Source: Amphiscolops sp. MND2022
Taxonomy: Eukaryota
DNA: 64,000 nucleotides
Direction: 5' to 3'
Assembly: GCA_964187785.1 (NCBI GenBank)
Contig: OZ076409.1
Span: forward strand, 65,846,001 to 65,910,000
Shown: one piece after another, positions 12,188 through 35,867 of the stretch
Layout: each line of letters begins with the position of its first letter
Numbering within the stretch: the stretch's first letter is position 1
Made by a program: the position numbers and the translations under genes
Notes under the pieces: generated by a model
What the model saw: only the letters and a program-made list of their open reading frames with translations
What the model was told of the DNA's origin: nothing
Database searches by the model: none

Positions 12188-15100
12188 TTAGAAATAAGGC
12201 TTTCCGTACCACTCTCTAGGAATGTTTCGTAACGTTCCTGTATTTCGTGAGCGTGGAGCAGCGGCAGTACTAGTTGAAGGAATATTGCGGGGTGAAGGAC
12301 TAGGTGTGGTTGGCTGACTAGTTATTGCTGGCGATTCTCCTTGAAATGAAATAGGAGTCTGAGGAGATGACTGAGGGATGCCAGAGTCGGGTGAGCTCGC
12401 TAAGAAAGTCGGTGTCGAATGAGCGGAGCCGCATTTAGCAGGCGAACTATAAGTCGTGTTCATCCTGGATGGACCAGGTGTGTCGGGAAATATAGGTAAG
12501 TATTCTTGTACGTGCTGTCGTTCAGCAAGCGTTTCAATTGGTTTGTTCAATTCGGAGAGTCGATTCTTTGCATACTCGTTGTAAAAATGTTCGGTTCTGT
12601 CGTCGTTGACAGGCTTTTCGTAATTGGACAACAATGTCGGTAAGTCATTATTACGAGGGAAAAATTCAACGAGATGATTACGATGAACGACATGAATCCT
12701 CGTTGGATCCGAATCGAGCGCGACTTCGTAGTTCACTTTCGTGATCACTTTAGTTACAGTGTACGGTCCACTTCGGAGCTCGCACAGTTTTTGTGATTTC
12801 CCGAATGGGACTTGATGATTTTCGAGTAGTACTTTTTGTCCAACACGTAATGGTTTAGCAAGTTTGTACTTGTTTCGGTACGGCAGAGATCGATGATTCG
12901 CTTTACGAACCTTTGTATATACTTTTCTGTATATGTTTTTGAATTGTGTTTCTCTGTGTAACAAATCCAATGAACACTTTGACGTCAGTAAGGAGTCGAT
13001 GCAAGAATGTTTCGTGTCTTTATTCAGGTGTGAGTGGTCAGGTAAAGACTGACAGAATTCGGATTGACACAAATCATTGTCGTCTCTCCCTAGACCTAAT
13101 TTCAACGAAATTGGAATTTGTGGTTTAAATCCGAAAACAACTTCGTAGGGGGTTGTTCCTGTACTGGCGTTCACTGAAGTGTTATGAGCGAAGGCGAACT
13201 GAGGAGCCAGCTTGGCCCAATTATTTCCTGCTTCGGAAAGATAGCATCGAAAATATCGACTGAGGTGTTTGTTTTGAATTTCAACCTTGCCGTTAGTCTA
13301 AGGAGACCATTTAGTTCTTGGGGCATGCGTTATGCCTAAATCCAAGAGAAAGGTTGAGAAATCGGTGCTCATGAACGATGTTCCTCTATCATATACAAGT
13401 TTTTGAGGAATACCAAACGAAGTAATGAAAGAAGTCATGGCTTCAATGGTATCACTTGCATCAGTCGACTTGACTGGGTAAACTTGTATAAATCGTGAGA
13501 ATGCGTCAATCACAACCAAACAGTGATGTTTCCCGTCGCTCATCGGATTCAGAGGTCCTTTGTGGTCGATGTGAACAGTGTGAAAGGGATAAGGAATTTC
13601 TTCTCCCCATTTTTCATTTGGAGCGGTGTTTTGATCCTTTCTGACTTGTTTATTTTTTTGGCATATTAGGCAGCTCTTCGTTAGAGTCCGCACCCATTTA
13701 TACATACCAGGCCAATAGAAAAATCTTTTCAGAGACAAAAGTGTCTTTTCACATCCGGGATGTCCTGAAAGTCGATGGTCGTGTGCAACATTGAAAGCTT
13801 CAATGAAACAGTTGCGAGGCAAACATATTTGTCGTGATGAATGCTTGCTAGTTTTACAAACAAGATGGGTTTCTTCATCGATGAACAATTTTTCAAATTG
13901 ATTTGAGTAGCCAAGTAATCCCTTGCATTGTCTTGACTCGACATCTTTTGACGGCACTTTGCCTTTAATTATCCATGATTTAACAGTGCTCAGGACTGGG
14001 TCATCCTGTTGGTTTGCCAAAATATTGTTTAAGTCTAGATTATCGGTAACGAGTTTCAATGGTTGTAGTGAGTCTTGAATGGTGAAAATGGAGAGGATGA
14101 AAGGAACATCTTCTTTAGATGCATTTACAACCTCTGTGTTCAATAGAGGATCTTCGTCAGAAGCCTCATTGTCACTATTGTCGGTTTCGGAGTCAATTTC
14201 GGAATAATGATTTTCCTGAACTTCGGCTTCCACAACCATTGGTGGGGTTTGCCATTTACGTCGAATGTTGATGTCCTTACCTTCACGGAAGGAATCAGAA
14301 ACATCAAAGAGCGCTTTCGGAGAGTTTGGATCGTATACCGTACAAATAAGATCTGTACCATCATTTTTCAGGTGAAGTTTCTTTGTTTCACCCAAGTGAG
14401 TGCAAACAATTGGGTAGAAATCATCGTTGGCGCTTTCAGCAGGGCTGTTGTGGTCTATCAGATACTGAACTTCGTGTCCACTTTGGCTGAAGAACTTTAT
14501 ATCTTTTGGAATTTCTTTGTGAAGCAATTGGTGCCCGTTGAGATCTTTCAACGACACATTTCTGCTTAGCAAATCTGGAAACGCTAAATTCTTTCCAGGG
14601 GTCCAAATGATTTGCAAATTAGTGAACTGAGTGATAATCACTTGGTAGCGGAAGAATCTATGAGATAATCTTCCTTTGCGTGCCCATAGATACAGGAGGG
14701 GCTTGTGATCACAGAATACCTTGATGGGATGCCGAGATCCAATTATGAAATGCTCATACGTTTGTAGAGCAGAAATGATTCCGCACAGTTCTCGATGTAG
14801 CGTTGACATCTTTTGTTCATCCTTTGTAAAGACTCGCGAATTGAAGGAAACTATACGTTTCCCGGAAGGAAAATCTTGAATTAAGATTGATCCCGTACCA
14901 ATACTGGAGGAGTCGACATGGATGTGGAACGGATACTTTGGGTTTGGTACAGCTAAGATGGTTTCTTTGCTGATTCTATTTTTTATGTCTTAGAACAAGT
15001 TCTCATGCTCTTTTGTCCATTTGAATGGAGTGTCATCTCTCAGAAGTTCGTAGAAAGGTTTCGAATCTACATGTAAATTTTTGATGAAGGTGCTGTAGAA

Positions 15101-17110
15101 ACCTAAACTTCCTAAGATGCGCATTACATCTCTTTTGTTCTCAGGGCTTTTCAGGTTTTTCAAATCTTGTACTTTTTTGGCTACTGGCTGGATTCCTTTG
15201 TCGGAGACAATGTGTCCAAGAAACTGAACTTTCCTCAAGAACAGTTTTGTTTTGTTCGGTGCAGCTTTCAGACCTGATGATCTCAAGCACTTGAAGTATG
15301 AATCCAAATTATTCCACATTTCTTGTTTGGTTTTTGCCTGTAAGATAACATCATCAATATATGTTATCACTTGTTTCTTGGCTATCATTTCAGCGAAATG
15401 AATAGTCATTATCCGACTGAAGAAGTTTGGTAGTCCGCAAAGACCATAGAATCCTCGTTCGAACATGTACTGTTTTCCACCAACAATAAAGCTTGTCAAC
15501 TTCTTCGTATCCTCGGTGAGGGGTACTTGGTTATAGGCGGAAGCTAAATCACTCGTTGTGTAATAAACTCCATCAAGTCGTGTCAGTAACATTTGTACTG
15601 GTTCAAGGGGCCATGAGTAGTTAGTCAAGTCAGTGATTGAGTTAAGATAACGTGCGTCAATCACAAGCTTCACGGTATCTCCTTTTGGTAAAATGATGAT
15701 AGGGTTTGTGAATAGGGAACCCATTTCCACATCATTTCCCATTTCTCGAATGATTCCAGCTTGTTGCAGTTCATTCAGAAGAATTTCAAGTCGGTCTCTG
15801 TAGTGCAGAGGGACTTTTGAGGGCCTTTGTTTTCGCAATTCGGCGTTTTTCTTCAATTGTACATGAAATGCTTGTGTGATTTTTCCAACATCATAAGTAA
15901 ATTTTGAAAACACGTCATTGTTTTCAACTAAAACTCGGAGAAGATGTTGTATTTCACGGTCATTTATATCGGATTCAGAAAAGTCAATTTTTTCTAAAAA
16001 GTTGCGTTCGGCGGGACTAAACTCGGCGTAAAATTCATCGTCGAGTTGTTTCCTTTTAATATCGGAAGCAGTTTTGGGCATTTTCGGTTGTAATGATTTC
16101 ACCTCATTGGAGAAATCAGTAGCCAGTTCATTTTGCGAAATAGCGCTTTCGGCCATTTGTTTCCGTGAATCAATTTCCGTTAAGGAATAAATATACGGTT
16201 CGGTCGAACAAACGTGTAAATCCTTGTTCCATTGAGACTCAGAAGTTTTGAGATACTCAATGAAAGCGACATTGTCAACGACACTCATCAATTGCGAGGT
16301 CTCTTGGACGCTGTCGAGCAATGTGTATCCAAGAATTCCTTTACGAATAGTAATACTATTCGGGTTCGGATTGTTCAGCATTAAAGGATATTTCGACTCG
16401 TCTTGTGAGCAATACACGTGATACGTGTAAATGCCAGTATCTAAAATGTCTTGGTGTAAACGGAAACTTGTTCCCTGTTTGAACAAATGTTTATCTTCAT
16501 CTCTAGCAATTAAACTCAAAACTCGGGTCGAATACGGTGCAATTGTAATGTCTTGAGTCAATTCTACTGAATTAACCTGGGAGAAGTAGGGAAAAGGCTT
16601 GTCTAAATAAGGTGACAGTTTAACACATTTGCCGGGGAAGACCGTTAAAATTAGCATTGGATTTCTCAAGTTAATGAATTCACCAAAATTTGCCAAAAAA
16701 TCCATTCCAAGAATGTTCATTCTCGCCTCGGGGGAATCAGACACATAAACAGTGTGTTCGATCACACAAGAATATTCTACGTCAAACGCAGACTGAATAA
16801 TAGTTTTCCCTTTCATGGGCATTGCGTGTCCATTAGCAGCTAAAGGCGATTTCTCGAGAGGCGTTACAACTAAAGGCTGAATTTTGTTAATTTCAGTGAA
16901 TGTCTCACGGTTGATAATGGAGCACGTTGCGCCAGTATCTATGAGAAATTGAGTGCTGAGGCCATCATTTTTATTTTTGTCTCCGACGGCGTATTGAAAT
17001 AATTCTATATAAAAATGTTGGCCGGACGTTCCAGCAGTTGGAATGTGAGGGGTTTCATTTGATTCCTCACTTTGTTGGTTCGGAGACTTGATTAGTTTAA
17101 AGGATTGCAT
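12188..17110 (-). pseudogene. pol: pol polyprotein (protease, RT, RNase H, integrase) with two in-frame stops
   Basis: ORFs 14990-17110, 13298-14809 and 12188-13174 share one frame. Motifs: DTGA (PR), YIDD (RT), VDSS...FCDHKPL (RH), HHCC, HIDH/YDRG/GKVE (IN) and GPY. Stops are TAA 14990-14992 and TAG 13298-13300. Confidence 0.93.
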
Positions 17111-18195
17111 GACTGCAGAGTGTCATACAAAGAATTCACCTTGTCAGGCTTTGCTTCGAACCGAACAGCTCCAGAGTAGCTGTTACTTCTGCTTCGGTAG
17201 CCATTTGAAACATAAGGACTATTACTTCTGCCTCTTTGGCCGTTGGACCGATTGTCCGATTGTGATGTGTTATTATTCGGAGACTTGGGTCGACTTGGAT
17301 AGTTTTGCGCATATGTTTCTTTTGGTTGGGGAGGAGGTTTTTCCTCGTTTTCTTTCTTCTTTTTCAATGTCCAACAGTACTTGATTGTGTGTCCGGATTT
17401 TTTGCAATAGTTGCAAAATCTAGTAAAGTCTTGTTTCATTTTTGGGTTGTTCGGATCATAGGTAGCATTGATTTGATGATTTTTCACCATGTTGGTGATT
17501 TCATTCAATGTTTTCTCTATGTTAGTGAAACGGGCGTCCATTGTCCCTGTTGAAGTTTGGGAACTTGAAGGTTGCAAGCCGGACATTTCGGCACTCACAA
17601 CTAAACTCATATCTTTATTTATGATAAGAGTCTGTAAAGCGTCCCATGATTTGTTGGGATCTTCAATCATTGCTTGATGGGCTTTCTGTTTAAGACCCGG
17701 GGGCATTAAGCCTCTTATGAAGTAGTCTTTGTACTTCCCAATTCTCTGATTTTCGCATGCTGTGATAGCCTCTTGATTCGCATTTGACGGTGTTGGCCAG
17801 CCTTTGTCTACCAACGTTTTTATTCTGTGGATGTAACTTTTTATGTTTTCATCAGGCTGTCTTTTCAGATTCTCGGCCTCAATTCGGAACCGATATTGCA
17901 TTTTTCTATCCGTAAACCTGTTTATGAATTGTGTTTTCATTTCTTCCCATGCTAACGCAGCGTCTAATGAATCAAACCACTCAGCCGCAGGTCCGCGTAG
18001 AACGGATCCGAAAAGTGCTTTTCTGCGGTCGTCATACACGGTTTGTTGGCCATTTTCATTTGCCGTAGGCCTACTTCCTAAAGAAAAGCTGATTTTCTTT
18101 TCTAATAGACGTATAAAAGCAGTTGGGTCCTCACTTGAATCGATTCCAATGAACTTCTCTAATGCTAAGTCAGGGTACGCTACAGTGTTTGCCAT
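17092..18195 (-). CDS. gag: Gag, 367 aa
   Basis: Retrotransposon capsid-like region (LRGPAAEWF) and CCHC knuckle CNYCKKSGHTIKYC. Confidence 0.93.
   Translation of the reverse strand: MANTVAYPDLALEKFIGIDSSEDPTAFIRLLEKKISFSLGSRPTANENGQQTVYDDRRKALFGSVLRGPAAEWFDSLDAALAWEEMKTQFINRFTDRKMQYRFRIEAENLKRQPDENIKSYIHRIKTLVDKGWPTPSNANQEAITACENQRIGKYKDYFIRGLMPPGLKQKAHQAMIEDPNKSWDALQTLIINKDMSLVVSAEMSGLQPSSSQTSTGTMDARFTNIEKTLNEITNMVKNHQINATYDPNNPKMKQDFTRFCNYCKKSGHTIKYCWTLKKKKENEEKPPPQPKETYAQNYPSRPKSPNNNTSQSDNRSNGQRGRSNSPYVSNGYRSRSNSYSGAVRFEAKPDKVNSLYDTLQSCNPLN
17095..17101 (-). other. -1 ribosomal frameshift slippery site U UUA AAC
   Basis: The gag frame reads CCT TTA AAC TAA, and pol is in the -1 frame. 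Confidence 0.8.
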
Positions 18196-18495
18196 TTGTC
18201 TATTTAATCACGTTTACTTTGCTCCTTCATCACACTTTACAATTTTATTATTATTTTTGGCAATAACAGACTGGATTTTTGTGTAGAAGTTTCGTTGCTC
18301 CAATACACATGTAAAAATTGTTTACAAAGGAATCTCTTCGATCCTTTCGCAAATAAATAATTTTTGGAGTTTTGTTGCTCCTTTGAAATGGACAGTTTCT
18401 GCGTATTTAAGCCTTAACACGGAATGTTAAATTCCAAGGCAGCAGGCGAGGTGAAATATGGGCTTTCCATTTTCTTGCGAAACCTCGCTGGGATC

Positions 18496-18720
18496 GTGCA
18501 ATTTAAGGAACACTCGTGTGTCAGAAATAAATTTCTTCCACGGAACCCGCACAGGCTAATACCGAAGCTAGCGTAAGTGGATACTGTTTAGACTCAGTAC
18601 CAAGAGTTGTGCAATTTAAGGAACACTCGTGTGTCAGAAATAAATTTCTTCCACGGAACCAGCACACGCTAATACCGAAGCTAGCGTAAGTGGATACTGT
18701 TTAGACTCAGTACCAAGAGT
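18496..18720. repeat. 113-bp tandem duplication in the retroelement 5' leader
   Basis: GTGCAATTTAAGGAACAC...CCAAGAGT at 18496 and 18609. Confidence 0.9.
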
Positions 18721-18949
18721 ATGAAATTTTGTTTAGTATCTGCTTTAGATACTAAATGTTGTCAAAAAGTGAATTTTTGTTTAATATCTGCTTTAGATAT
18801 TAAATGTTGCACAAACAGTTGTTATTTTTCAAGAAATATTTGCTTTAAATATTTCAATTTTGAAAGATAAATCCCACCACGGGGAAAAGATTTTTGTTTT
18901 GTACGCTCGGTTTTATGGTCGTACAAATTGCGGTGTGAAATTGTTCTTT

Positions 18950-18964
18950 GCTCTGGTCGCACCA
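18950..18964 (-). other. Primer binding site TGGTGCGACCAGAGC
   Basis: Begins with TGG, 2 nt after the 5' LTR. The primer tRNA was not identified. Confidence 0.75.
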
Positions 18965-18966
18965 GA

Positions 18967-19473
18967 TGTTGTACACCGGTGTTTTGGTTACTTAGTACTC
19001 GCTTTCTAACCTAAGCATTAAGTCTCAAAAAGTGTTACGAAAAGGAAGATAAATTAAAACTGGAGGTTTACAGTAAGTAGAATTTTGTTAAGTCCTGCAA
19101 ATCGCTGACTTGTAAAATTTATAATGTTCTGTCAATTTTGGGACTCTTTGTCCTTTCAATTTTGGGGGATTTTCAGAAAGCAAGAGAGAAGGAAAATTGA
19201 GAGAAGAGAAAAGAGTTGTTGCTTTCTCAGTGTTCCGCGTTGGAATTGGTACCTGAATTTTTCTTTCCAGCTCAGGACAGTTCTACTGTCGCGTGGATTT
19301 TTCCTACTGGCTGAGCATTAAAGGAATTTGGGAATTCCAATTTCCTTTTAGCGCGTTGCTATTCGCTTAGAAAATAAAATGCTCTAATAATTCCGCTTTG
19401 GAAATTATTATGTCTCTGAGTCAATTTCCTCTATTGGGAAAATGAACTAAATTAGAAATAGCGCATTGCTACA
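18967..19473 (-). repeat. 5' LTR
   Basis: 507-bp near-identical copy of 7170-7676, adjacent to the PBS. Confidence 0.95.
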
Positions 19474-22166: not shown

Positions 22167-22221
22167 AGAAGAATACAGCCGCAAATAAACCAGGTACTTA
22201 GAACAGTTTTAACCCAAATTT
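22167..22221 (+). repeat. Polinton left TIR
   Basis: 55-bp perfect reverse complement of 44069-44123, starting AGAAGAA, with ~35 bp of imperfect extension. Confidence 0.95.
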
Positions 22222-22354
22222 TAATTCAATTAAAATTTAACACAAGTACTTTTACAAATACTTTTAAGAATCACTGAAAAGGAAATGAATATTCATTCCT
22301 ATACGCACACGCGTGGCTGCTTTTAATTTAATTTGCGCACGCGCTGGCGGCCGT

Positions 22355-22500
22355 TCGCGGTTTTTCCCGCGCATCCGCACAAGCTACACGAGCGCGGATT
22401 TATCCGCGCAGGCTATACGAGCGCGGATTTTTCCGCGCCGTTCCCATATGCAGCATTTTTTTAAACTTTCGTGCGCTCTCACGGCCAATAGAATTGGCTC
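22355..22500 (+). promoter_or_regulatory. GC-rich subterminal cluster with E2F-like sites and paired CCAAT boxes
   Basis: TTTTCCCGCGC, two 27-bp direct repeats containing GCGCGGA-TTTW-TCCGCGC, and GGCCAATAGAATTGGC. Confidence 0.4.
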
Positions 22501-23230
22501 ACACACTCATCTGTTGTAATTTTCAATTGCACAACTATTCATCATCAACTCTTTATCAACAACAGCAGCTCTTTCTTCAACGCTAACACTTCTATTCAAT
22601 CTTCTACGACTATACAAAATCCCGCAGCAAATGTTAGTATTTTTCTAAGTGAATTTCCATTCCCAATCAACAAAAATAGCAAGCTTCTTTAGTTTTTTTT
22701 CTGTTATAGCATGTCTCAAAACAACAACACCACCACCAGCATCGCCGCCGCCGCCACCAGCATCGCCGCCACCGCCACCACCACCACCAGCATCGCCGCC
22801 ACCACCACCCAGAACTAACCAGAAATGGAAATGTGGGTTATTTATTTGTTCGTTTGCTTACTGGATTGAAAACAAATTCTTATTAAATTTTCACGAGCTG
22901 CAAATCAAACTGTTTTATTCTAGAATCATCAACGCCAATTCGCAGTCGCCTCTGCTTACCACCCCGATCTTTGTTTTGCCGCCGCCCTACGAAGAAGAAG
23001 AAGAAATTTATTCATCGGAGATCTCCCAGGACTCAATGTCCGAGGTATGTTGAAGCAATGTTCATATTTTTGACAGAATTTTTTTTGTTTGCGCCCTTTA
23101 GCAATTGAGAACCTTAACGAAAGTCAAGTTGCACAATCATTGAAAAAAAGGCAACAAAAATAGTTTCCTATTGTAACAACGAATGTACACTAAACCTTCA
23201 GTTCGAAAAAATTTTGTGTGGAAAACATTG

Positions 23231-24464
23231 CTTTTGTGTTGTTTGCGCATTGCCATTGTACAATACAAGTGCATACACGCACGTAGGACTTGTGTAACGA
23301 CCCCGTGGGTGACCGGACAAAATCCGCGTCGCGCGGATTTTTATTTTTTGCTTTTGTCAAGCTCCCCGTGCATTGTGGGAATGTTGTTTTTGTGTTGTTT
23401 GCGCATTGCCAATGTACAATACAAGTGCATACACGCACGTAGGACTTGTGTAACGACCCCGTGGGTGGCCGGACAAAATCCGCGTCGCGCGGATTTTTAT
23501 TTTTTGCTTTTGTCAAGCTCCCCGTGCAATGTGGGAATGTTGTTTTTGTGTTGTTTGCGCATTGCCAATGTACAATACAAGTGCATACACGCACGTAGGA
23601 CTTGTGTAACGACCCCGTGGGTGGCCGGACAAAATCCGCGTCGCGCGGATTTTTATTTTTTGCTTTTGTCAAGCTCCCCGTGCAATGTGGGAGTGTTGTT
23701 TTTGTGTTGTTTGCGCATTGCCAATGTACAATACAAGTGCATACACTCACGTAGGACTTGTGTAACGACCCCGTTGGTGGCCGGACAAAATCCGCGTCGC
23801 GCGGATTTTGATTTTTTGCTTTTGTCAAGCTCCCCGTGCATTGTGGGAATGTTGTTTTTGTGTTGTTTGCGCATTGCCAATGTACAATACAAGTGCATAC
23901 ACGTACGTAGGACTTGTGTAACGACCCCGTGGGTGGCCGGACAAAATCCGCGTCGCGCGGATTTTTATTTTTTGCTTTTGCCAAACTCCCCGTGCATTGT
24001 GGGAATGTTGTTTTTGTGTTGTTTGCGCATTGCCAATGTACAATACAAGTGCATACACGCACGTAGGACTTGTGTAACGACCCCGTGGGTGGCCGGACAA
24101 AATCCGCGTCGCGCGGATTTTTATTTTTTGCTTTTGTCAAGCTCCCCGTGCATTGAGGGAGTGTTGTTTTTGTGTTGTTTGCGCATTGCCAATGTACAAT
24201 ACAAGTGCATACACGCACGTAGGACTTGTGTAACGACCCCGTGGGTGGCCGGACAAAATCCGCGTCGCGCGGATTTTTATTTTTTGCTTTTGCCAAGCTC
24301 CCCGTGCATTGTAGGAATGTTGTTTTTGTGTTGTTTGCGCATTGCCAATGTACAATACAAGTGCATACACGCACGTAGGACTTGTGTAACGACCCCATGG
24401 GTGGCCGGACAAAATCCGCGTCGCGCGGATTTTTATTTTTTGCTTTTGCCAAGCTCCCCGTGCA
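23231..24464. repeat. Tandem array of ~8 x 156 bp inside the Polinton
   Basis: Near-identical units, each with the hairpin AAAATCCGCG-TCG-CGCGGATTTT. The 52-codon periodicity shows in both overlapping ORFs. Confidence 0.95.
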
Positions 24465-24486
24465 ACCAAATGTTTAAACACAAAAA

Positions 24487-24695
24487 GGTCTTGTTGGTGT
24501 CGCGGTCATGGTGATTTGCTAGACATTGTCGCCTGCCTCTTGGGAAGGCAGGGTGATGCTGAAAACATCAACAATCACAGTGGTATCTATTCCAGAAGGT
24601 TGAGCCTCGACCCCCACAGAGGTTCAAACCTTCATCACTGAGAACTCTGCCGACAATGTCCGGCCCCGATCAGTATCCGCTGGACTAACAGGACC
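24487..24695 (+). ncRNA. Candidate structured ncRNA (~210 nt), possibly a Pol III / VA-RNA-like transcript
   Basis: Nested helices 24487-98/24684-95, 24522-31/24651-60, 24532-38/24546-52, 24554-58/24566-70, 24578-84/24634-40 and 24595-608/24619-33. G-U pairs favour the + strand. A-box-like TGGTGTCGCGG and B-box GTTCAAACC. Confidence 0.55.
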
Positions 24696-24774
24696 TTTAT
24701 TTGACATGAAAATAGTTTCAGCAATAAAGATCCAGAGACTATGATTGTAGATTTTATAGAACGACGTTGTTTTT

Positions 24775-25893
24775 GTGTTTGTTCAGGAGATGAAGTTCCG
24801 AAAGCAGCGGGACGCTTTTCAAGTTCTTTACGACTATTTTCGAAGAGGTCGCCAGTCAAGTTTCCACGTTGTGGTCCTCACGCCGTACGTTGAGCAATTC
24901 ACGAATAATTTCCTTGGTTACAGCGCTACTGTAAAAGACTACAGCAAAGTTCTTTTTCCCTGTCAATCGATTGACGAGGACGTCAATCACGTTTACCGAA
25001 GTTTCCTCGGTTCAAACACGGACGTGAAGCCAATAAATCGGAAAAAATACGAGGTGATGGATTACCACTACAAGCGATCCTTCGACAATCTAGTCCTCGG
25101 TATTGATTACGATGAAATTGAAAAAGATTTCCCCGCTGGCGATTCGGATTCGGACGATGATTGGAGTGACGATGGGATCTTCAATCATGATGTAGCAGTT
25201 CCTGATATAACTTTCAACAACCTCAACGACAATCAAGCCGTCAGGGTCTTCAAGGTCCTTGCAAAGATCAATGATTTCCCATCTTTGCTGGTCGGAGAAA
25301 CACGCTTCATTATTGGTCTGAGCAGCCTGCCGGTAGAATCCGTCAACGATGGGTTCCCTATTAATTTTTACTGGGATGTTGGAGAAATGCAGTTGGTTGA
25401 AAATGACACTCTTATTTTCTTGCCAGACGACTGCCTCGAGAAACTGGAGACCATTTGGCTCAATAGCAATAACGAAGAGAATTTCTTCGAATTTCTTCTC
25501 ATTGTCGATTTTGAGCAGGGTGTGCTGCGATTTGGCCTCAACGACCAATTACTTTTGCAGACAATCTGTTTCCAAAGTGACCTCGCTTATGAGATTAGAA
25601 TTTACTTCACCAAAACCACGGAATCATTGATGATATTAGAGGTTTTCAATCAGCCAAAAGCCTTGTCAAGTCTTGTGCCAGAGTGTCTGTTGAATATGTA
25701 TCAAGAGCAGGCCGACGATTTGTTTAGCTGTCAATGGGCCAACGAATTTGTTGAACATCTGGTGAAAAAATTCTATTTTCAGAATTGTTCAAAAGGTTCA
25801 ACGGTCACTGATGAACATCATCCCCTGATGGTTTCCCGGAAGTCTCTCTTGGAAGCCCATAGAATTACCAGAATGCAATCGCAAGCTCTGTAA
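24775..25893 (+). CDS. Polinton accessory protein, 372 aa, unknown
   Basis: Long ORF with protein-like composition and an acidic patch. The start is uncertain. Confidence 0.7.
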   Translation: MFVQEMKFRKQRDAFQVLYDYFRRGRQSSFHVVVLTPYVEQFTNNFLGYSATVKDYSKVLFPCQSIDEDVNHVYRSFLGSNTDVKPINRKKYEVMDYHYKRSFDNLVLGIDYDEIEKDFPAGDSDSDDDWSDDGIFNHDVAVPDITFNNLNDNQAVRVFKVLAKINDFPSLLVGETRFIIGLSSLPVESVNDGFPINFYWDVGEMQLVENDTLIFLPDDCLEKLETIWLNSNNEENFFEFLLIVDFEQGVLRFGLNDQLLLQTICFQSDLAYEIRIYFTKTTESLMILEVFNQPKALSSLVPECLLNMYQEQADDLFSCQWANEFVEHLVKKFYFQNCSKGSTVTDEHHPLMVSRKSLLEAHRITRMQSQAL

Positions 25894-26319
25894 TTTGTAA
25901 TTAAACGTTGCGCTGGATAGCAGTTCTTTCTTGTTGTAACATGTTTTTTGAAGCGTTGAATTGTCTTAAAACTGCTTAAAATTCAATGTATTTTTTTCAA
26001 GGAGTGAGAAAGAATCAGTCTTCATCAATAAAATGTTTGTAATCGGTACTGTTTTTTTTGGATTTTGCCACCTATACAGTCTAGACGTTTTTTTGCAGAA
26101 GACATAAAACAGTTGGAGTCGTGAAATTGATTCTCCCATCCTGTCCGAAACGCAGCAAACTATATATGTATTCGTTGCGCCTTAAAACGTTTTCTCCCTT
26201 CAAATCACAGTTCAGTTTTTTTTGTTAAAGTCGCTGATTACATGTTTCACTACATTTTTGAGAGTTCAGATTCACAGTACTCTTTCCGTTTCAGAGTCTC
26301 ATTGTTTTGACGAAAAAAG

Positions 26320-27039
26320 ATGAATTGGTTGAACAGTGTTGTACGTAAGCGCTCCCAGAAGAAGACTCTGGGTATTGTTGGAAACGATGCAAAATCTGTT
26401 GTGTCCTCCTGGCGAATCTCACCGGAGCAAGACGAGTCCAGCCACGACAAATGGTGGGACATTGCCAAGTCGCATAATCGCTGGGTTAGAATCGGAGTGA
26501 AGTGCTACCCAAACAACCTCTCTTCGGAGATGTCAACCGCGACTTACATCGGGCTGCGACTATTCAAACCCGATTTTCAAAGCGGCCAGTGGCAGCGGCA
26601 GGGTCACTTTTCGTTCACTGTTGAAGAGCTGACTGCGTTTGTTGCTTTGCTTGGTCTAGGTGACAAGGCGGCATTGGAATCATCAGGGGTGAAATCTGCG
26701 ACGACGCAGGAGTTCAACAGAGCGATGGAGGAAGCTCTGACGGGTGGGTTCCGAGAACCTACGTCAATCTCAACTTTTGGAAAGAAGCCTACTGGCAAGA
26801 AAGGTTTTTCCAAGGTCAATGGCGCGAAAGTCGGGTCAACCACAACCACATCGAAGAAGCGGGTCCAAAATGTCACGGGCGACTGTTTGACCAATGGCGA
26901 CAAGGAGAACATAACAATCGAGGCCGACGTTGAAAACCAAAAATTGTTTGAGAAACGAGATTTTGTTATGTTCAACGGTGAGACTGGTACGAACATAGCC
27001 ACCACTGAGGATGATGATGATGAAGTTTTCATGAACTAA
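26320..27039 (+). CDS. Polinton accessory protein with a candidate PC4-like ssDNA-binding domain
   Basis: RWVRIGV...YIGLRLF...GHFSFTVEEL resembles the PC4 strand/helix pattern. Acidic C-terminal tail (EDDDDE); lies just upstream of pPolB. Confidence 0.55.
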   Translation: MNWLNSVVRKRSQKKTLGIVGNDAKSVVSSWRISPEQDESSHDKWWDIAKSHNRWVRIGVKCYPNNLSSEMSTATYIGLRLFKPDFQSGQWQRQGHFSFTVEELTAFVALLGLGDKAALESSGVKSATTQEFNRAMEEALTGGFREPTSISTFGKKPTGKKGFSKVNGAKVGSTTTTSKKRVQNVTGDCLTNGDKENITIEADVENQKLFEKRDFVMFNGETGTNIATTEDDDDEVFMN

Positions 27040-27401
27040 ACGTCTCTTAAAGCTCGATGTTTTGTTGTATATGTGTTTGTTTGTTCTTGCGCGTGCGTTA
27101 AGTTTGACACTTTTTAATTTTGGCCAACTTCTCATTACGTTTCACTTATTGGCTTCTAAATAGGCATTTTTTCATACAGTACTTCGGTTCTCATTTATAC
27201 TCATCAGGCTAACCCCTCTGTGACGTGTTGCGTATACAAGTTTGTTTCCGGACCATTTATATAAATACCTTCTTCATATAATTTATGTTGTTGATTTTGT
27301 TTTTTTTTACTATTTGGAATCTTCATCAATCTTACAGTAGTTTTAATTGCTTCTGTGACACGTTTAATTCTTGTTGCATTGCGTTTGTTGCAGATTATGC
27401 C

Positions 27402-30400
27402 ATGGGGTTCAATCCTGAGCAGTACTATAGTGTAAATCGAATGCCACAAAGACGTAGTCTGTTGCGAGCGGCCAGCAGAGACTATGAAGTGTACTTCACG
27501 GACATTGAAAGTGTGCTGGATCGAATTAAAGAGATTTTCAACCACCTCATCAACAAATTGATATCTGAGATACAGCAAGATCTTCCTGGTCATTCACACA
27601 GAATTCGATTGGTATTGAATGCGCCTACCCTCAACTATCCTATTCATATCCCATTCTCGTCCGTAGCGGATTTCAACGCCGAACTGATTCCCGATGAAAT
27701 TGACAGGGTCGTTAATTCCAATGAGTCATTTGATATTAGCAACAATATCAAAGTCAACGTTTTGAGTGTTTCTTTACCAACAATGGGCGGGAACCGGCTT
27801 GGAGGCATACAGAGCAGGACTGTTCCCGATATCAAGCTCTTCACGAAACAAAAGAAGTCAATAATTGTAATCAAAAGTGACCAGAACGATTGTCTTTTGC
27901 GGGCCATAGCAATTGGCATCAAAGTTAAGGAGCGATCTCCCTGGCCGCCTAGTAAAAGAAAAACGACAAAAAACTTGCACCTAGATCGGGCTTCCGTGCA
28001 AACGCGTGAAATGCAGCATTTGATAACCCTTCTGAAATCTGATCCAAGCATCCCCCAAGACGAATTGCAGACAATTTTGGCTGGTGGTGCTTCCTCGAAA
28101 AGACTTCCCACCTCTGCCTTTGACGACTCCTCTACTGGGTTGCTTCACCATCAGACAGCTCAAACCTCTCCTGCTTATGGTAAACCTCTTGCTCTACAAG
28201 ATTTAGAATTTTTGTCTCAGTCGCAAGTGTTGAAAGACTTTTGTTTATCTGTTTACGATAGCAACTTTATGGGCACTTTCCTTAAATGTTATAATCAGGA
28301 AGCACAGCAGAATATCGACCTTTTGTATGATGCTCAAAACAGACAAGTAGATTTAGTTACCTCAATGAAAGGACTATTCGATGCTCGCCACTACTGTTAC
28401 AGTTGTCACAAGGCCTTTTCCACAGTGAAGCATTTATGCTCTGCCAGTGGTTGTTTGCTGTGTCGGCAGCCTGGCTGTCTCAATAGGACCGGTTTCATCA
28501 ACCATTCGCCGCTCAATTGGACTACCTCGTCCAATGACTTGTCAAAGACCCCTCGCCAGTCACCGGTTTTCCAGTGTGATAGATGCAGGCTAAAGGTACG
28601 AAGCCAAAAGTGTCTGGATTGCCATGTTACCTCTGGGGTGTGTCATTTGTACACTTTGTGCCCTACATGCGACAATACTGTACCTAAGCGAGCTTTCTCC
28701 AATCATATTTGCTCAAAAAAACGCTGTTCTACTTGCTCCGTCCATTACTCATTGTCAGACCGTAAAAACACCTCTTCGCCTTCATCGGAACATCAATGTT
28801 TTGTACAAAAACCGAAGAGATGTATAGAGCGAGAAATACCGAATGGTGATACCAATAACGAATTTCCTGATTGTGAAATATTGGGCGGAGAGAATTATCG
28901 TGAAGAAGTTGAGAAAGAAGATCCGATGACGCAAATCAAACGCAGGAAAATGAGCAACGCTCCAGTCGATGACGATGGTACTGTTACGTCTCGTGACCAG
29001 CCAGCAAACAACTTTGCACGAGCTCCCTCGGATGACAAAATTTGGGTTTTTGACATAGAAACTGACCAGAGTTGTGGCAATGAAGGGCTACATAAACCAA
29101 TTCTACTGGCAGCAGAGTCTTTGACAGGTGATGAAGTTATTTACTGTGGCTACGATTGTATAAACGATTTTTGTGAGGATGTTTTTGCTAGTGTTGAAAG
29201 GGTTCGTCAAACTGAATGGTTTATTGCCCATTTTGGCAGTGGGTTCGATTTCCTACCAATCCTGGAATGGCTCTACAAACAACACAAATATGTTCCCAAA
29301 ATTTTGCTCAGAGGTAACAAGGTTGTGTCAATGCGTGTGGGGAATAAACGATTCATTGACTCTTATCTTTTCATCCCGATACCTTCATCAAATTTTCCCA
29401 CAACGTTCAATCTCAAGGAATTGAAAAAAGGATACTTTCCTCATTTTTTGACATCTAAAGAGGCCCTCTATCCCGCCGCTACTTCAAAGCTGCATAGTTT
29501 ACAAACATGCGAGAAAGGGGAAAACTGCAATCTGCGCAAAATTGTTTCCAACGACTGCAATCACTGTGTAGCTACACAAAGCAATGTTCGCTGCTTCAAT
29601 GCAGGAAATGACCAAGAAGAAGAATGCCAAGAGTTTGCTCTCAAAGAGAGCCAATTTCCACCCGCGTGCCTTTTTGCTTTGAATTCGATGAAAGGACAGC
29701 AAACGGTGAGCACGTTTTTGGAATGGCACTCAGCACAGACCCAGCTTTATAAAGTTAATAAGCTCGTTTACGACTTTCAACAAGAACTCGTGTCGTACTG
29801 TCAGTCAGATGTTAAACTACTCAAAGAGGGTTTTTTGAAGTTTAGAACATTAATCAAGAAAGTGTGCAGCGGAATAGATCCGTTCGAAGTCGCTTGCACA
29901 GCATCAGCATGTAATTACTTTTATAGACAACTATTCATGCCGAAGGACTCCATCGCAATCCTCCCTCAGAACGGTTACACGGGCAATGAGTTAACGTCTT
30001 TCCCAGCTGCCGTTTGGCTGTCGTGGGTGGAACAAGTTGCAAATGATCGGAAGTCAAACGAGTTCAGTATTCGTCTGTATAAATCAGGCGGAGGATTGAA
30101 GCGAGGCAGAGGTAAGGAGCAGACACTTGGATCATTCAATGTAGACGGACTTCTTCTGTACAAACGAACATCTCAATCAAAGAGTACCGCATGTGGGAGT
30201 GTTGTCCAGAAACCACAACTGTCGATAGTTTTGGAGTTTTCTGGATGTTACTTCCACGGGTGTCCTTCTTGTTATACAGACCGAGATGAGGTTAATAAGA
30301 AACGAAATGCTACAACAATGCATGATTTGTACACCACAACAGATATGGACAGACTGGACTGGATATCAGCTCAAATCTCGAACGGCACAGTCTTCACAAC

Positions 30401-32435
30401 AACAGATAACTTACGTTTTGTTGTGCATAGTATATTTTTCATTTGGGAATGTGAGTTTAAAAAACTGTTGGAACTGTCCATATCTGAAGACGAAGAAGGA
30501 ATTGATACAACGTGGACGCATTTGCCGAGGTCAGTAGCAGCAAGACTCAGCAGCTCCCCCTCGAGCATTTCCGATGACATCCAGCAGGTCGAACAAAGTC
30601 GTGTAATACATCAGACCTTACTGTATCGGCTGAGTAACATCAAACTACTGCAACAGATGTCAAATGACAGCATTCGTTACAGTCCGTTACAGCCTCGTGA
30701 CGCTTTTTTTGGAGGAAGAACAGAAAATTTTGTCATGAAGTGGTCTCGACAACTACAGTCTCAGACCTTCAAGTATGTCGATGTTTGTTCGCTGTACCCA
30801 TATGTGAATTCCAGGTCAGTGTACCCTTCAGGGCATCCTGATTTGATTCTGATTGCTACAGAACAGCAACAACAATCGATTGCGCGTAAAGGAAAGGCTC
30901 GGAATAACAGCAACTCTGCCAATGAAAAACCGCCTCAAACCAGTTGGTTTGACGAGGATGTGAATGTAGCTCAAAGTAAAGCTGTGGAGTTTAAATTTTT
31001 GGATCGGGTTGACAGGATTCTTACAATGCCCAGTAACGAACGAGACTCGGGAGGAGATCAATGTGAAGCTGAAAAATCACATTCTCTGCCTCCACCACAG
31101 AGGTTCCGAAAGTTTTCGCAACGAACGCTTTTGGAATTCCCCTTAACTTTTGTTGAATTAAAATTGAAAAACGAGGATTATTTTGGTCTGATAAAATGCC
31201 AAGTACTGCCACCGTCTGATATACATCTACCCATTTTACCATTCAAATTTCAATCGAAACTCTTTTTTCCGCTATGTCGAAGTTGCGTTGAAGAAAGATC
31301 CAGCATGCCTGACAAAAAGAGTGTGGACTTGACATCAAAGAAGTGTGTTCATCGCCAAGTAGAAGAGAGGAGTTTCTGGGGCACATTTGCTACCCCAGAA
31401 GTTAAGCTTGCTTTGGAAAATGGATACCGAGTGATAGATGTAGCAGAGATTTGGAGTTGGTCGAGAGCAAAAAGGTCTGTGACATTGTTCAAAGAATATA
31501 TCGATAACTTTTTGAAAATAAAAATGGAGGCATCTGGTTGGCCAAAAACATGCCGCTGTGAAGAGAAGATGAATTCTGATTCATCGACAGAAATGATATG
31601 CGAGCATAAGAGGCGTTACCTTCAGGAGATGAAGAAGAAAGAAGGCATTTCACTTGACCCTGCGAGGATAGAGAAAAACGAAGGTCTACGCTTTATTGCT
31701 AAAATACTTCTGAACAGCTTCTGGGGTTATCTCGGAATGCGGGATAATATGCCAAAAACGAGGTACGTCAACAACTATCGAGAGGTCGTGGACTATTTCA
31801 CATCGCGAACAAAAAGAGTTACTGATGCGACTCTAGTGGGCGATGATTTGATGCTGCTACAATATCAACTCATTGATGACGCGGCAGACGCTCCGCGGAA
31901 GACAAATGTGATTCTTGCTGCCTTCACAACTGCACATGCTCGCATAATACTTTTCAACAATATGCAGCTGGTGAAAAATCCTAAAAATGTACTCTATTGT
32001 GATACAGACAGTATCATGTATGTCCACGATCAATCTCTGACCGATTCCCCGGATATCTCAATTGGGAGTGGACTGGGCGAAATGACCGACGAACTGCCTC
32101 CTGATGTCTTGATTGACAAGTTTTGGAGTGCAGGGCCAAAGTTTTATTGCTTGTCTGGTCACAACGTTAAAACAGGACTGGAGTATAATATTTTCAAAGT
32201 CAAGGGTGTAACGCTGAATAGGGCTACAGAGAAAACATTCAACCCCGATACCTTCAGAAAACTCGTGCTTGGTGAGACTCATGAATTGCGAAGTCCTTAC
32301 AGTAGTCTGAGTCGTTGTGTTCGAACAGGCCAACTGAAAAACAAGTTTTGTGAAAAACGCGCCCGAGTCACAAGTAACAAACGTGTTTTCAACACAAATT
32401 CCGGCGAATCTACACCGTTTGGTTACGTCGGTTGA
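27402..32435 (+). CDS. polB: Protein-primed family B DNA polymerase
   Basis: Exo I FDIET, Exo II AHFGSGFDF, Exo III YCQSDV, EFSGCYFHGC insert, motif A DVCSLYP, motif B KILLNSFWG, motif C YCDTDS and KVKG. Cys-rich N-terminal region. The frame is open from 27285 and the likely start is ATG 27402. Confidence 0.97.
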   Translation: MGFNPEQYYSVNRMPQRRSLLRAASRDYEVYFTDIESVLDRIKEIFNHLINKLISEIQQDLPGHSHRIRLVLNAPTLNYPIHIPFSSVADFNAELIPDEIDRVVNSNESFDISNNIKVNVLSVSLPTMGGNRLGGIQSRTVPDIKLFTKQKKSIIVIKSDQNDCLLRAIAIGIKVKERSPWPPSKRKTTKNLHLDRASVQTREMQHLITLLKSDPSIPQDELQTILAGGASSKRLPTSAFDDSSTGLLHHQTAQTSPAYGKPLALQDLEFLSQSQVLKDFCLSVYDSNFMGTFLKCYNQEAQQNIDLLYDAQNRQVDLVTSMKGLFDARHYCYSCHKAFSTVKHLCSASGCLLCRQPGCLNRTGFINHSPLNWTTSSNDLSKTPRQSPVFQCDRCRLKVRSQKCLDCHVTSGVCHLYTLCPTCDNTVPKRAFSNHICSKKRCSTCSVHYSLSDRKNTSSPSSEHQCFVQKPKRCIEREIPNGDTNNEFPDCEILGGENYREEVEKEDPMTQIKRRKMSNAPVDDDGTVTSRDQPANNFARAPSDDKIWVFDIETDQSCGNEGLHKPILLAAESLTGDEVIYCGYDCINDFCEDVFASVERVRQTEWFIAHFGSGFDFLPILEWLYKQHKYVPKILLRGNKVVSMRVGNKRFIDSYLFIPIPSSNFPTTFNLKELKKGYFPHFLTSKEALYPAATSKLHSLQTCEKGENCNLRKIVSNDCNHCVATQSNVRCFNAGNDQEEECQEFALKESQFPPACLFALNSMKGQQTVSTFLEWHSAQTQLYKVNKLVYDFQQELVSYCQSDVKLLKEGFLKFRTLIKKVCSGIDPFEVACTASACNYFYRQLFMPKDSIAILPQNGYTGNELTSFPAAVWLSWVEQVANDRKSNEFSIRLYKSGGGLKRGRGKEQTLGSFNVDGLLLYKRTSQSKSTACGSVVQKPQLSIVLEFSGCYFHGCPSCYTDRDEVNKKRNATTMHDLYTTTDMDRLDWISAQISNGTVFTTTDNLRFVVHSIFFIWECEFKKLLELSISEDEEGIDTTWTHLPRSVAARLSSSPSSISDDIQQVEQSRVIHQTLLYRLSNIKLLQQMSNDSIRYSPLQPRDAFFGGRTENFVMKWSRQLQSQTFKYVDVCSLYPYVNSRSVYPSGHPDLILIATEQQQQSIARKGKARNNSNSANEKPPQTSWFDEDVNVAQSKAVEFKFLDRVDRILTMPSNERDSGGDQCEAEKSHSLPPPQRFRKFSQRTLLEFPLTFVELKLKNEDYFGLIKCQVLPPSDIHLPILPFKFQSKLFFPLCRSCVEERSSMPDKKSVDLTSKKCVHRQVEERSFWGTFATPEVKLALENGYRVIDVAEIWSWSRAKRSVTLFKEYIDNFLKIKMEASGWPKTCRCEEKMNSDSSTEMICEHKRRYLQEMKKKEGISLDPARIEKNEGLRFIAKILLNSFWGYLGMRDNMPKTRYVNNYREVVDYFTSRTKRVTDATLVGDDLMLLQYQLIDDAADAPRKTNVILAAFTTAHARIILFNNMQLVKNPKNVLYCDTDSIMYVHDQSLTDSPDISIGSGLGEMTDELPPDVLIDKFWSAGPKFYCLSGHNVKTGLEYNIFKVKGVTLNRATEKTFNPDTFRKLVLGETHELRSPYSSLSRCVRTGQLKNKFCEKRARVTSNKRVFNTNSGESTPFGYVG

Positions 32436-32638
32436 ACAATAACTTCTCATTTATTTTAGACATACATGAATTTTATCAAGTTTGTAAAACATTCGTCCTT
32501 GTTGTGTGGCTATTACTTTGCTTTTGAAAATAAAATTTGTGCTTAAATCTCGATTGACCATCTGGATTAAACATCCTCCTTGGTTAATAATCAAAACTGG
32601 CCCAATTAACGAACTGCTGTGTTTCAGACTTTTTGTCA

Positions 32639-33543
32639 ATGGAATTCCGACGTAAATCATCGTCCTTCTATGCCCATTTCGTTTTTTACCCGAACCCGAA
32701 CTCTGAAGACAAAGCAGTGAAGCAATGTCTGTACGTACGGGAAAAATTATGTGAGATGTTCGCTGCTAGAAATGTCGATTATCTAATGGGGGCACATCTT
32801 TTCAGTTGTTACAGACAATGCGGTTACAATTTTGATGAAGTGCGATGCATTTGTGATGTGTCACCGCAAATACAAAATGGCAGGTTCCCATCTGGACGGT
32901 GTTACATTTTGCCGGAGCCAAGGGACGCCTCCACTATCGACAATCATATTCACATTTTAGTCCATGTACCAGCAGCAAATACCACAGGGCAACAATGTAA
33001 GGTAGGCTACGATGTCTCTGTACAATCAGTCGCAGGAAAGAATCCATCTGCTAAGCGTATAAAAGTGGAAGAGGCTGCACAAGTTTCTGTTTCTGGAAAC
33101 AGTGGCAACCTGACCGTCAATGAGAGAAGCGCAGATTTGCCGAGTGCCACCATTTCACCCTCAACATTACCTGTTGACACATTTAGAGACCCTCTTGACC
33201 CAGTTGTTACTACAGAGACCAACATGAATTGGCAACTTGAAGAATTGTTCGCCAAATACAAAAATTTTTCAGCATCGACTTGAAAAACAAAGAATTTGGT
33301 AGCTTTTCAGTGCAACAGAGAAATGTATGGTGGCCTTACTCCTTGTGGACCAGCTTTGTTGTTGCTGCTGGCGACGGTTTCACCACAATCGTTGGAAATA
33401 CCTTCAATTACGCAATGAAAATGGAGCGAAAAAGACAATCAGCAGACTATGCAAACAGAGAGCTTTTTCCGAAGCGAGCCCCCAAAATGAAGGCCCGTGT
33501 TCTTTGGGAACTTCATTGTATCTCTATGCAACAGAGTCTGTAG
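32639..33543 (+). CDS. Two overlapping ORFs (32639-33283, 33280-33543), possibly one HUH-motif protein
   Basis: DNHIHILVHV in the first ORF and NYAMK in the -1 frame second ORF, with an A AAT TTT heptamer at 33262-33268. Confidence 0.45.
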
Positions 33544-33857
33544 TGGTATTTACGTTGTCTGTAGTGGTTACTTGTAATAAAATATTCGTCTAATTTTTAT
33601 TTTTCTTTCAAATCTTTAGCTGGCCCAGCGAGTTTTTTCCCCATGTTTTCTTGGAAAAGTCGGCTATCATTGGTTTTATTTTCACAATCTAGTACTCGAT
33701 TATTTAGTATTGCGTGTTTTTGGAAAAGACCATTTTGCTCAGTTTCAATACATTGGAGCGGTCAGACATGTTTGCGCTGACTTTGTCAAAACTTGAATAG
33801 TTTTTTGAAATTGCCCGCAAATTCCACAGGCATTGCACAAAAACTAACTATGATATC

Positions 33858-34373
33858 ATGGCTGATTATTGCCTCAAAGAGATTGCAGCAAGTTACGAAA
33901 GCGATATCGATCACGATGCTATTTGCCGGAAAATTCGCCTACAACTCGACAATTCCGTCCCCCGACGTTTTTATTTCAATCACATTCTGTTTTTAACGGT
34001 AATTATCGTGGAAACGAATTCTTGTACATGTCAAGGAGTTTGTGATCAATGTGCTATCAACAAAATTTTCAAAATGGGTGATTTGTCGCATTGTGCACCT
34101 TGGGGCGGTATAATTGGACCTGGAATGACCGTCAGAACGCATTACGTTTTTTCAACTATATCATCAATTTTGAACTTACACGCTGTTTTCCATGATGCTT
34201 ATGGCCACTTGTATCGGACTCGTCAGAAGGGCCCCGGTTACAACTATATGCTACCATTTCAGTTACTACCAAATGTTTTTTGGGTTGGGCATTTTACAGG
34301 TTTTCTCTTCTTCTTCTGGTTAAAAATCAGGTATTCCACTCATTTCAGATACTTTGACGCACTTCTCAAATAA
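33858..34373 (+). CDS. Phospholipase A2-like accessory protein, 171 aa
   Basis: IIGPG followed by HAVFHDAYG, resembling the GPG loop and catalytic HD of viral PLA2 domains. Hydrophobic C-terminus. Confidence 0.55.
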   Translation: MADYCLKEIAASYESDIDHDAICRKIRLQLDNSVPRRFYFNHILFLTVIIVETNSCTCQGVCDQCAINKIFKMGDLSHCAPWGGIIGPGMTVRTHYVFSTISSILNLHAVFHDAYGHLYRTRQKGPGYNYMLPFQLLPNVFWVGHFTGFLFFFWLKIRYSTHFRYFDALLK

Positions 34374-34401
34374 TTGCTCCAGCGATTGACATCCAAAAGC
34401 C

Positions 34402-35439: not shown

Positions 35440-35867
35440 TGTCCTATTCATGTTTTTTTTGTGTGTTCAGAGTTTGCTAGTATTTTTCATTGTTTTTGTT
35501 CAAACCTTATTCTAACTGTATGTTTTTGTTTGGTTCCTATCAGTTTGTTTTTAAATTTTTTCTTCTTTATGTGCACATTAATACTATGGATAAGTTTTAT
35601 ACTGTGGATAATGCGTTTTTTTGGCTTCTCACTACTTTGTTTCAGTATTGTTTTGTCTCAGCTTATACTAACGAAGTCACTGTACAGAGATTCTCGATAA
35701 TAATGTCTATTTGCTTTTAAGATGCATGGTTGCGATACAATTTGTACACGACGGAACAGACGAGGACACAAATATAGACGAGATTAGAAAAGAGTGACAT
35801 CTCGCCTCTTAGTGAACGAAAAGTTGGTAACAATTCCCCTGGGTCATCAGAATTAACCTCTTACAAG

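What the first reader, a model, noticed from the sequence alone, without database searches (positions are those of the whole stretch)
24562..24640. A 33-nt motif and its local fold are shared between the Polinton candidate ncRNA and the unrelated Gypsy retroelement
Seen: AAAACATCAACAATCACAGTGGTATCTATTCCA (24562-24594, Polinton non-coding region) matches AAAACATCAATAATCACAGTGGTATCTATTCCA (9627-9659, env-ORF4 spacer) at 32/33. Both continue GAAG...CCTT(C)ATCACT, so AGTGGT can pair with ATCACT around a bulged ATCTATTCCA in both. The apical hairpin is long in the Polinton and tiny in the retroelement. Inference, option 1: a dsDNA virus-like element and a retrovirus-like element carry one homologous RNA or cis module, such as a captured or mimicked host small RNA or an anti-silencing decoy. 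Option 2: the Polinton + strand RNA is an antisense guide against the minus-strand retroelement transcript. The shared pairing outside the exact match favours option 1. I do not recognise the motif.
Basis: partly seen in the sequence, partly recalled or inferred. Interest (0 to 1): 0.92.

Follow-up and report, generated by a model that had tools for sequence, protein, structure and literature searches.

The report
RNA module shared by unrelated transposons
Unrelated mobile elements in an acoel worm genome keep the same 30-letter sequence, and one DNA virus-like family appears to make it as part of its own small RNA, which hints at a common trick against one host defence factor.

Summary
The match is real and much wider than two loci. 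A 22-nt core has 3,896 genome matches at up to 3 mismatches (control 0). Sampled copies fall in 11 contexts: four Gypsy-type lineages, a BEL/Pao element, Polinton-type elements, a tandem array and unidentified repeats. Core identity between contexts is 0.97; flanks are 0.36-0.38 against a 0.35 baseline. It is not a SINE insertion. In the Polinton the motif lies inside a ~211-nt minus-strand unit with A box, B box and T5 terminator, the only such box pair in the window, laid out like adenovirus VA RNA. The same strand is sense in 5 of 5 LTR lineages, which excludes the antisense-guide idea. No Rfam family, tested host RNA or complementary host locus explains it. Best reading (0.45): a folded RNA module that binds one host surveillance factor, acting in cis on LTR RNAs and as a Pol III decoy from Polintons. 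Expression, strand and partner are inferred, not shown; some folding evidence favours the other strand.

The parts
24562..24594 (-). Shared ~30-nt module, Polinton copy; probably read on the minus strand, starting at 24594
9627..9659 (-). Shared module, Gypsy copy, on the element's sense strand, 63 nt after the env stop and upstream of ORF4; no A or B box nearby
24482..24697 (-). Putative RNA polymerase III gene of the Polinton, ~211 nt to the T run; 5' and 3' ends pair into a rod with a branched head that holds the module
24677..24687 (-). A box, 11 nt from the inferred start, in the terminal stem
24621..24630 (-). B box (one departure from the tRNA-type consensus) in the apical hairpin
24482..24486 (-). 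T5 run directly after the rod (candidate Pol III terminator)
24633..24640 (-).
9667..9676 (-). Equivalent pairing strand in the Gypsy copy, closing a tiny hairpin
23228..24464 (.). 156-nt tandem array directly downstream of the putative Pol III gene
22167..44123 (+). Host Polinton (terminal inverted repeats, 6-bp target duplication)
7170..19473 (-). Host env-bearing Gypsy-type LTR element with an extra ORF4

Best explanation
The 33-mer is a transposon-borne RNA module, read on the strand that begins at window 24594 and 9659 (minus strand). SHOWN: it is held nearly fixed across unrelated elements while its flanks drift; its centre pairs with a short strand supplied by the 5' flank, closing a hairpin of free length and leaving a ~11-nt loop open. 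INFERRED: it binds one host RNA-surveillance or RNA-fate factor (a protein or RNP) by sequence and shape. LTR retroelements carry it in cis on their own RNA, at any position (before gag, after pol, between env and ORF4, after ORF4), to protect or route that RNA. Polinton-type elements display it in trans on an abundant Pol III rod RNA, as adenoviruses use VA RNA, to titrate the same factor. Elements probably picked it up from one another in shared germline or stem cells and selection then kept it.
For: 3,896 matches at <=3 mismatches, 3,622 at <=2, control 0: no halo of weak sites. Among 79 distinct copies in 11 hand-assigned groups, mean identity between groups (55 pairs) is 0.97 for the 19-nt core and 0.36/0.38 for 40-nt flanks, baseline 0.35. 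Within the most abundant Gypsy group (24 copies) core 0.96 vs flanks 0.63/0.72; two carrier lineages have env proteins ~30% identical. The 3' 19-mer almost never occurs without the rest (3 hits, all motif copies). A+B box pair on this strand in 11 of 12 rods and in 0 of 12 on the other; T5 at the rod end in 10 of 12 within the range scanned; the only pair in 64 kb, 9 of 200 shuffles hold one. Four A-type genes have a TATA-like word at -30 as two of three U6 genes do. A/A' alignment folds at -58.3 on this strand vs -32.8 on the other; 96% of cells paired, 6 of 63 pairs with changes on both sides. The same strand is sense in 5 of 5 LTR lineages. A' copies lie in ORF-poor palindromic elements whose ends are shared with ~18-kb Polintons, so a protein-less derivative kept the RNA gene twice.
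Against: No expression data and no partner identified. The box patterns were chosen after seeing the sequences. The double changes are few events inherited by subfamilies (133 of 500 shuffles reach 6 pairs). A pPolB-bearing locus (L134) has the motif on the strand opposite its polymerase gene with no boxes; L132 and L135 are unexplained. In the B lineage and in one fold of A the module pairs differently. The second hairpin is not supported. Within the 4 Polinton copies the core (0.87) is barely above flanks (0.82/0.77), one copy being decayed.
Confidence: 0.45

Rival explanations
1. The module is the source of a fixed element-encoded small RNA (21-30 nt, 5' U at 24594) that is loaded on Argonaute or PIWI and represses a host defence mRNA, like BLV Pol III miRNAs or mivaRNAs.
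For: Conservation starts sharply at the 5' U, is strict over nucleotides 2-20 except one central position, and relaxes over 21-30, a guide-like profile; 29 nt then a U run; in the B lineage it sits on one arm of a long hairpin.
Against: No common precursor fold across contexts; in B the 5' end lies in a 3-nt loop. No near-complementary host locus with exact seed, wobble allowed, <=1 mismatch (13 hits, mostly motif copies, control 5). Seed-only or exon-junction targets would be missed.
Confidence: 0.2
2. The module is a near-perfect site for one host miRNA or piRNA and works as a sponge or degradation trigger (HSUR1 logic); tandem copies raise the dose.
For: Fixed positions 14-21 and 23-32 with free positions 13 and 22 fit seed, free position 9-10 and 3' pairing (1,458 copies have a non-G at position 22). 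Two to seven tandem copies in L131, L132, L133.
Against: No guide gene found: 52 hits vs 31 control, excess being decayed motif copies and another repeat. Positions 1-12 stay unexplained. Natural triggers have a central bulge (PMC11662681, passages), not one free base.
Confidence: 0.12
3. It is a DNA site for a long-footprint host protein (promoter, enhancer or insulator) that works in either orientation.
For: It lies 130-200 nt upstream of a splice acceptor plus ATG in both window elements but in opposite orientation to the gene; the B lineage has an inverted partial second copy; L134 has no Pol III boxes.
Against: No halo of degenerate sites; same orientation in 5 of 5 LTR lineages; flank-supplied helix; no likeness to U1, U2 or U6 upstream regions.
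Confidence: 0.1
4. It is an unknown self-cleaving or exonuclease-blocking RNA that makes subgenomic ends, later capped by SL trans-splicing.
For: Fixed core with a variable-length hairpin, tandem copies, intercistronic position upstream of acceptors; the host has SL RNA genes.
Against: No Rfam ribozyme hit; also found after the last ORF and in the middle of a Pol III rod, where cutting has no evident use.
Confidence: 0.1
5. Neutral hitchhiking or a short interspersed repeat inserted in many elements.
For: High copy number; A-type units have A and B boxes like SINE heads.
Against: Core far more conserved than flanks within and between lineages; LTR copies lack boxes and tail; A-type copies share sequence upstream of the start, which retroposition would not copy.
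Confidence: 0.03

Closest known systems
Adenovirus VA RNA I/II
   Same: Pol III internal promoter with box A in the terminal stem, box B in the apical stem, U-run terminator, branched central domain (PMC7589676, passages); carried by a relative of adenoviruses (PMC6431247, passages).
   Different: 211-252 nt against ~160; the GGGU/ACCC pair is present in 1 of 4 Polinton copies; no Rfam hit; the central module is shared with LTR retroelements.
BLV Pol III miRNA cluster
   Same: Element-encoded small RNA from type 2 Pol III promoters (PMC12498455, abstract only).
   Different: There the retrovirus holds the promoter; here LTR copies have no boxes and no common pre-miRNA fold.
HSUR1, m169 and other viral miRNA-degradation triggers
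   Same: A viral non-coding RNA that displays a fixed site for a host factor (PMC11662681, passages).
   Different: No guide found here; Pol III rather than U-RNA type; no central bulge.
Vault RNA
   Same: Pol III, A and B boxes, paired ends.
   Different: True vault genes lie elsewhere in this genome with a different core and ~105-135 nt.
Retroviral CTE, plant-virus coremin/xrRNA, trypanosome Pr77, VANC target motifs (all recalled, no call)
   Same: Short cis modules shared among elements or viruses.
   Different: As recalled, each is shared within one class or is a known host mimic; none spans LTR retroelements and Polintons. No sequence test was run against them other than the Rfam scans.

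Membership tests
Adenovirus VA RNA | Intragenic box A and box B | tested here: met
   11 of 12 rods on the minus-type strand; patterns recalled and chosen after seeing the sequences
Adenovirus VA RNA | Box A in terminal stem, box B in apical stem, U-run end | tested here: met
   layout from PMC7589676 passages
Adenovirus VA RNA | Conserved GGGU/ACCC tetranucleotide pair | tested here: not met
   both words in 1 of 4 Polinton copies, read from the alignment
Adenovirus VA RNA | About 160 nt; Rfam match | tested here: not met
   208-252 nt to T5; no hit
Adenovirus VA RNA | Pol III transcription in vivo; inhibition of a dsRNA sensor | not testable with these tools
   needs RNA data and assays
Vault RNA | Match to RF00006 and its core | tested here: not met
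   49 scored hits; the 8 read are a different RNA
SRP RNA | Match to RF00017 | tested here: not met
   11 full-length genes elsewhere; no hit on the rods
tRNA-derived SINE | Whole head with boxes present at each insertion | tested here: not met
   no B box upstream of the LTR copies scanned
tRNA-derived SINE | Unrelated sequence upstream of the start; tail and target duplication | tested here: inconclusive
   upstream shared among most A copies but not L058; duplications around A units not sought
miRNA gene | Common pre-miRNA hairpin | tested here: not met
   long hairpin only in the B lineage
miRNA gene | Mature and star reads | not testable with these tools
   no reads available
miRNA sponge or degradation trigger | Complementary host guide gene | tested here: inconclusive
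   none at <=1 mismatch outside the motif context; bulged pairing not covered
SL RNA or Ur-like element | Identity or pairing with the SL RNA donor region | tested here: not met
   11/13 identity reached by 29 of 300 shuffles; duplex energies ordinary
U17/snR30 | RF00045 match and pairing with 18S expansion segment 6 | tested here: not met
Polinton (host element) | pPolB, integrase, ATPase, protease, terminal repeats, 6-bp duplication | tested here: met

The most novel reading that the evidence does not exclude
DNA viruses-in-residence and two superfamilies of LTR retroelements in one animal have converged on, or traded, a single 30-nt RNA module aimed at one host defence factor, and Polintons broadcast it as a VA-like Pol III decoy that protein-less Polinton derivatives also keep: a shared, RNA-only counter-defence across transposon classes.
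Probability: 0.35. Interest if true: 0.9.

Novelty: new variant of a known kind. Interest (0 to 1): 0.74.

Why it matters
Known transposon counter-defences are mostly proteins confined to one family. A fixed RNA module kept by Gypsy, BEL/Pao and Polinton elements would point to one bottleneck in the host's RNA surveillance and gives a ready bait to find it. A Pol III rod RNA in a Polinton would also bear on the origin of adenoviral VA RNAs. My literature searches listed no report of the motif or of a Pol III RNA in a Polinton; I saw only titles and abstract starts for those lists, and the library lacks most subscription journals.

Tried and rejected
Rfam: nothing at the motif. Exact motif in viral contigs: 0. 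Metagenomes: 12 exact 19-place hits, none with the 5' part; the one read in full is inside a bacterial ORF. Phage records: none. Polinton ORF1 relatives: 9 proteins, unnamed, none in viral contigs. U2 look-alike: genome U2 is canonical. snRNA promoter element: no match upstream of U1, U2, U6. rRNA: duplexes with 18S and 5.1 kb downstream no better than shuffles; the 5' spacer and the rest of 28S were not fetched. Duplex screen of 8 host RNAs on both strands (16 tests): U3 9 of 1000 and 5S 17 of 1000 were lowest, both broken by large bulges, and the U3 register shifts in the commonest variant; not accepted after allowing for 16 tests. SL exon and SL RNA. tRNA-like end lacking CCA in the genome: none. 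Short peptide: no common start or stop across contexts. One search was meant to find lone 5' halves but negated only one position, so it is weak (23 hits, mostly mutated copies). U4, U5, U7, U11, U12, RNase P, MRP, 7SK and Y RNA were not fetched; only the Rfam scans speak to them. miR-7, miR-2, miR-27, IRE, hammerhead, hairpin and HDV resemblances were judged from memory and dropped. The acoel miRNA sequences were not found in the one supplement searched or in the main text of the preprint; that preprint's supplements are closed and may bear on the small-RNA readings. Earlier findings of this scan: none.

Full report
Observation. The two 33-mers lie at 24562-24594 and 9627-9659 and differ at one base. 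The 20-nt core occurs twice in the window and never in 100 shuffles. The first lies in a Polinton (22167-44123; pPolB, rve, A32 ATPase, adenoviral protease; 6-bp duplication). The second lies in an env-bearing Gypsy-type element on the minus strand (7170-19473), between env and ORF4. The genome carries a published acoel spliced leader 2,378 times at up to 3 mismatches (sequence from PMC9911081, passages), so the host is an acoel.

Spread. The 22-nt core has 3,896 matches at up to 3 mismatches and 3,622 at up to 2, with control 0. I read only a sample: 109 occurrences, 79 distinct, after leaving out metagenome and SL loci and copies whose 5' part had more than 5 changes, which removes the inverted partial copies of the B lineage. 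I assigned them by hand to 11 groups. These are the window's Gypsy group C (most abundant); Gypsy B (env ~30% identical to C); E (L035, integrase C-terminal hit); F (L131, rve); a BEL/Pao element (L133, DUF1759); the window's Polinton family; a second pPolB-like locus (L134; no Pfam hit itself, 3 of 36 longer homologues carry PF03175); two related ORF-poor units A and A'; a 106-nt tandem array with 7 copies (L132); and L135, unidentified. Between groups the 19-nt core is 0.97 identical and the 40-nt flanks 0.36 and 0.38, against 0.35 for random window pairs. A few flank pairs are higher (up to 0.65), showing that A, A', the Polinton unit and some LTR flanks share ancestry. Within group C the core is 0.96 and the flanks 0.63 and 0.72. 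Position 22 of the 33-mer is free (1,458 copies with another base), 13 and 33 vary, 1-11 vary mildly. The 3' 19-mer without the rest gave 3 hits, all motif copies. This is selection on a single unit, not a repeat insertion.

Strand and the Polinton RNA. On the minus strand the Polinton copy sits in a unit that starts near 24697, with an A box at 24687-24677, a B box at 24630-24621, the module from 24594 and a T5 run at 24486-24482. It is the only A+B pair in the window on either strand; 9 of 200 shuffles hold one. Of 12 rods examined, 11 have the pair on this strand and none on the other; the exception is a decayed copy. Four A-type genes show a TATA-like word at -30, as two of three U6 genes do. 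Eleven A and A' copies fold at -58.3 kcal/mol on this strand and -32.8 on the other; 96% of cells pair and 6 of 63 pairs change on both sides, but these are few inherited events. The layout matches that described for adenovirus VA RNA: box A in the terminal stem, box B in the apical stem, U-run end (PMC7589676, passages). The same strand is the sense strand in 5 of 5 LTR lineages, at four different positions in the element. The LTR copies scanned have no B box upstream. Against this strand: the window copy folds better on the plus strand (z -4.9 vs -2.3); four Polinton copies give a covariation term of -0.62 on plus and +1.94 on minus; the pair at position 22 is mostly a wobble on plus and a mismatch on minus; the B box is canonical on plus in the Polinton and most A' copies; and the box patterns were recalled and chosen after seeing the data.

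What A' is. One A' arm runs through an 84-nt array to an end that has 329 genome matches. Among the first 100 rows listed I read 20 inward-facing pairs 14-25 kb apart, all 20 with matching 6-bp flanks; three enclose A' motif pairs. Three kilobases from the middle of one 18-kb element encode an A32-like ATPase 42% identical to the window Polinton's (below the Pfam cut-off). So A' is probably a protein-poor Polinton derivative that holds the RNA gene twice. The motif lists I saw show no copy inside that 18-kb element. A remains unassigned and could be a host gene family.

Local fold. Shared ancestry of flanks may contribute. A second hairpin is not supported (116 of 1000).

Search for a partner. 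No Rfam family fits. Vault, SRP, U1, U2, U6 and SL genes exist elsewhere and do not contain the motif (SRP genes located but not read). Pairing with rRNA, SL RNA and other host RNAs is not beyond chance once 16 tests are counted. Searches built to exclude the motif's own context found no host miRNA-like gene, target or CCA-less gene; they allow one mismatch and no bulge or intron. Nothing related was found outside this genome.

Mechanism. A fixed core in a recurring fold, position-independent in LTR RNAs and displayed on a Pol III rod by Polinton-type elements, is best explained as a binding module for one host factor, used in cis and as a decoy (0.45). Shown: sequence constraint, spread, orientation in LTR elements, promoter-like signals. 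Inferred: transcription, strand, binding, benefit. Rivals are an element-encoded guide RNA (0.2), a sponge for a host small RNA (0.12), a DNA site (0.1), a catalytic or nuclease-blocking RNA (0.1) and hitchhiking (0.03).

Novelty. It works like VA RNA or HSUR1 if the main reading is right, but fails membership of VA, vault, SRP, SINE and miRNA families on tested features. Searches for the motif, for Pol III RNAs in Polintons and for shared decoy motifs listed no prior description; I saw listings only. Papers read: passages of PMC9911081, 10.1101/2022.08.27.505549, 10.1101/642082, PMC3687364, 10.1101/2024.12.01.626237, PMC11701709 (plus one supplement search), PMC7589676, PMC6431247 and PMC11662681; abstract of PMC12498455. 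Verdict: a real, selected module shared across transposon classes, with a probable VA-like Pol III gene in a Polinton; new variant of a known kind; interest 0.74.

Noticed in passing
window 48018-48215 (+) and 5437-5633 (-): Two U3 snoRNA genes above the Rfam cut-off (87.7 and 55.2 bits).
   Followed up: partly
L128 (G000 C1 ~16.23-16.42 Mb): SL RNA genes in a tandem array linked to 5S rRNA; 1,262 leader-plus-donor matches in the genome.
   Followed up: partly
L116, L118, L119, L123, L125: Dispersed repeats headed by the spliced leader followed at once by an inverted partial copy of it, forming a hairpin; other leader copies look like retroposed trans-spliced mRNAs.
   Followed up: no
L097-L103: Large vault RNA arrays (about 690-nt unit on C8) and at least three diverged vault RNA types in this acoel.
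   Followed up: partly
L091-L095: Several strongly diverged U1 variants, some with changed 5' ends.
   Followed up: no
L033, L034, L038, L136: Palindromic, ORF-poor elements of 14-25 kb with Polinton-type ends, 6-bp target duplications and 84-nt arrays; assembly gap at the centre of L033.
   Followed up: partly
window 23228-24464: 156-nt tandem array in the Polinton, each unit with a strong hairpin followed by a T run on the plus strand.
   Followed up: no
window 7890-9449 (-): 519-aa ORF4 after env with no Pfam family; unrelated extra ORFs sit at the same place in other env-bearing lineages.
   Followed up: no
window 24787-24790: Splice acceptor directly before the Polinton ORF1 start, kept in three copies; a candidate trans-splice site.
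   Followed up: no
L096: The 18S copy fetched is highly diverged in expansion segment 6.
   Followed up: no
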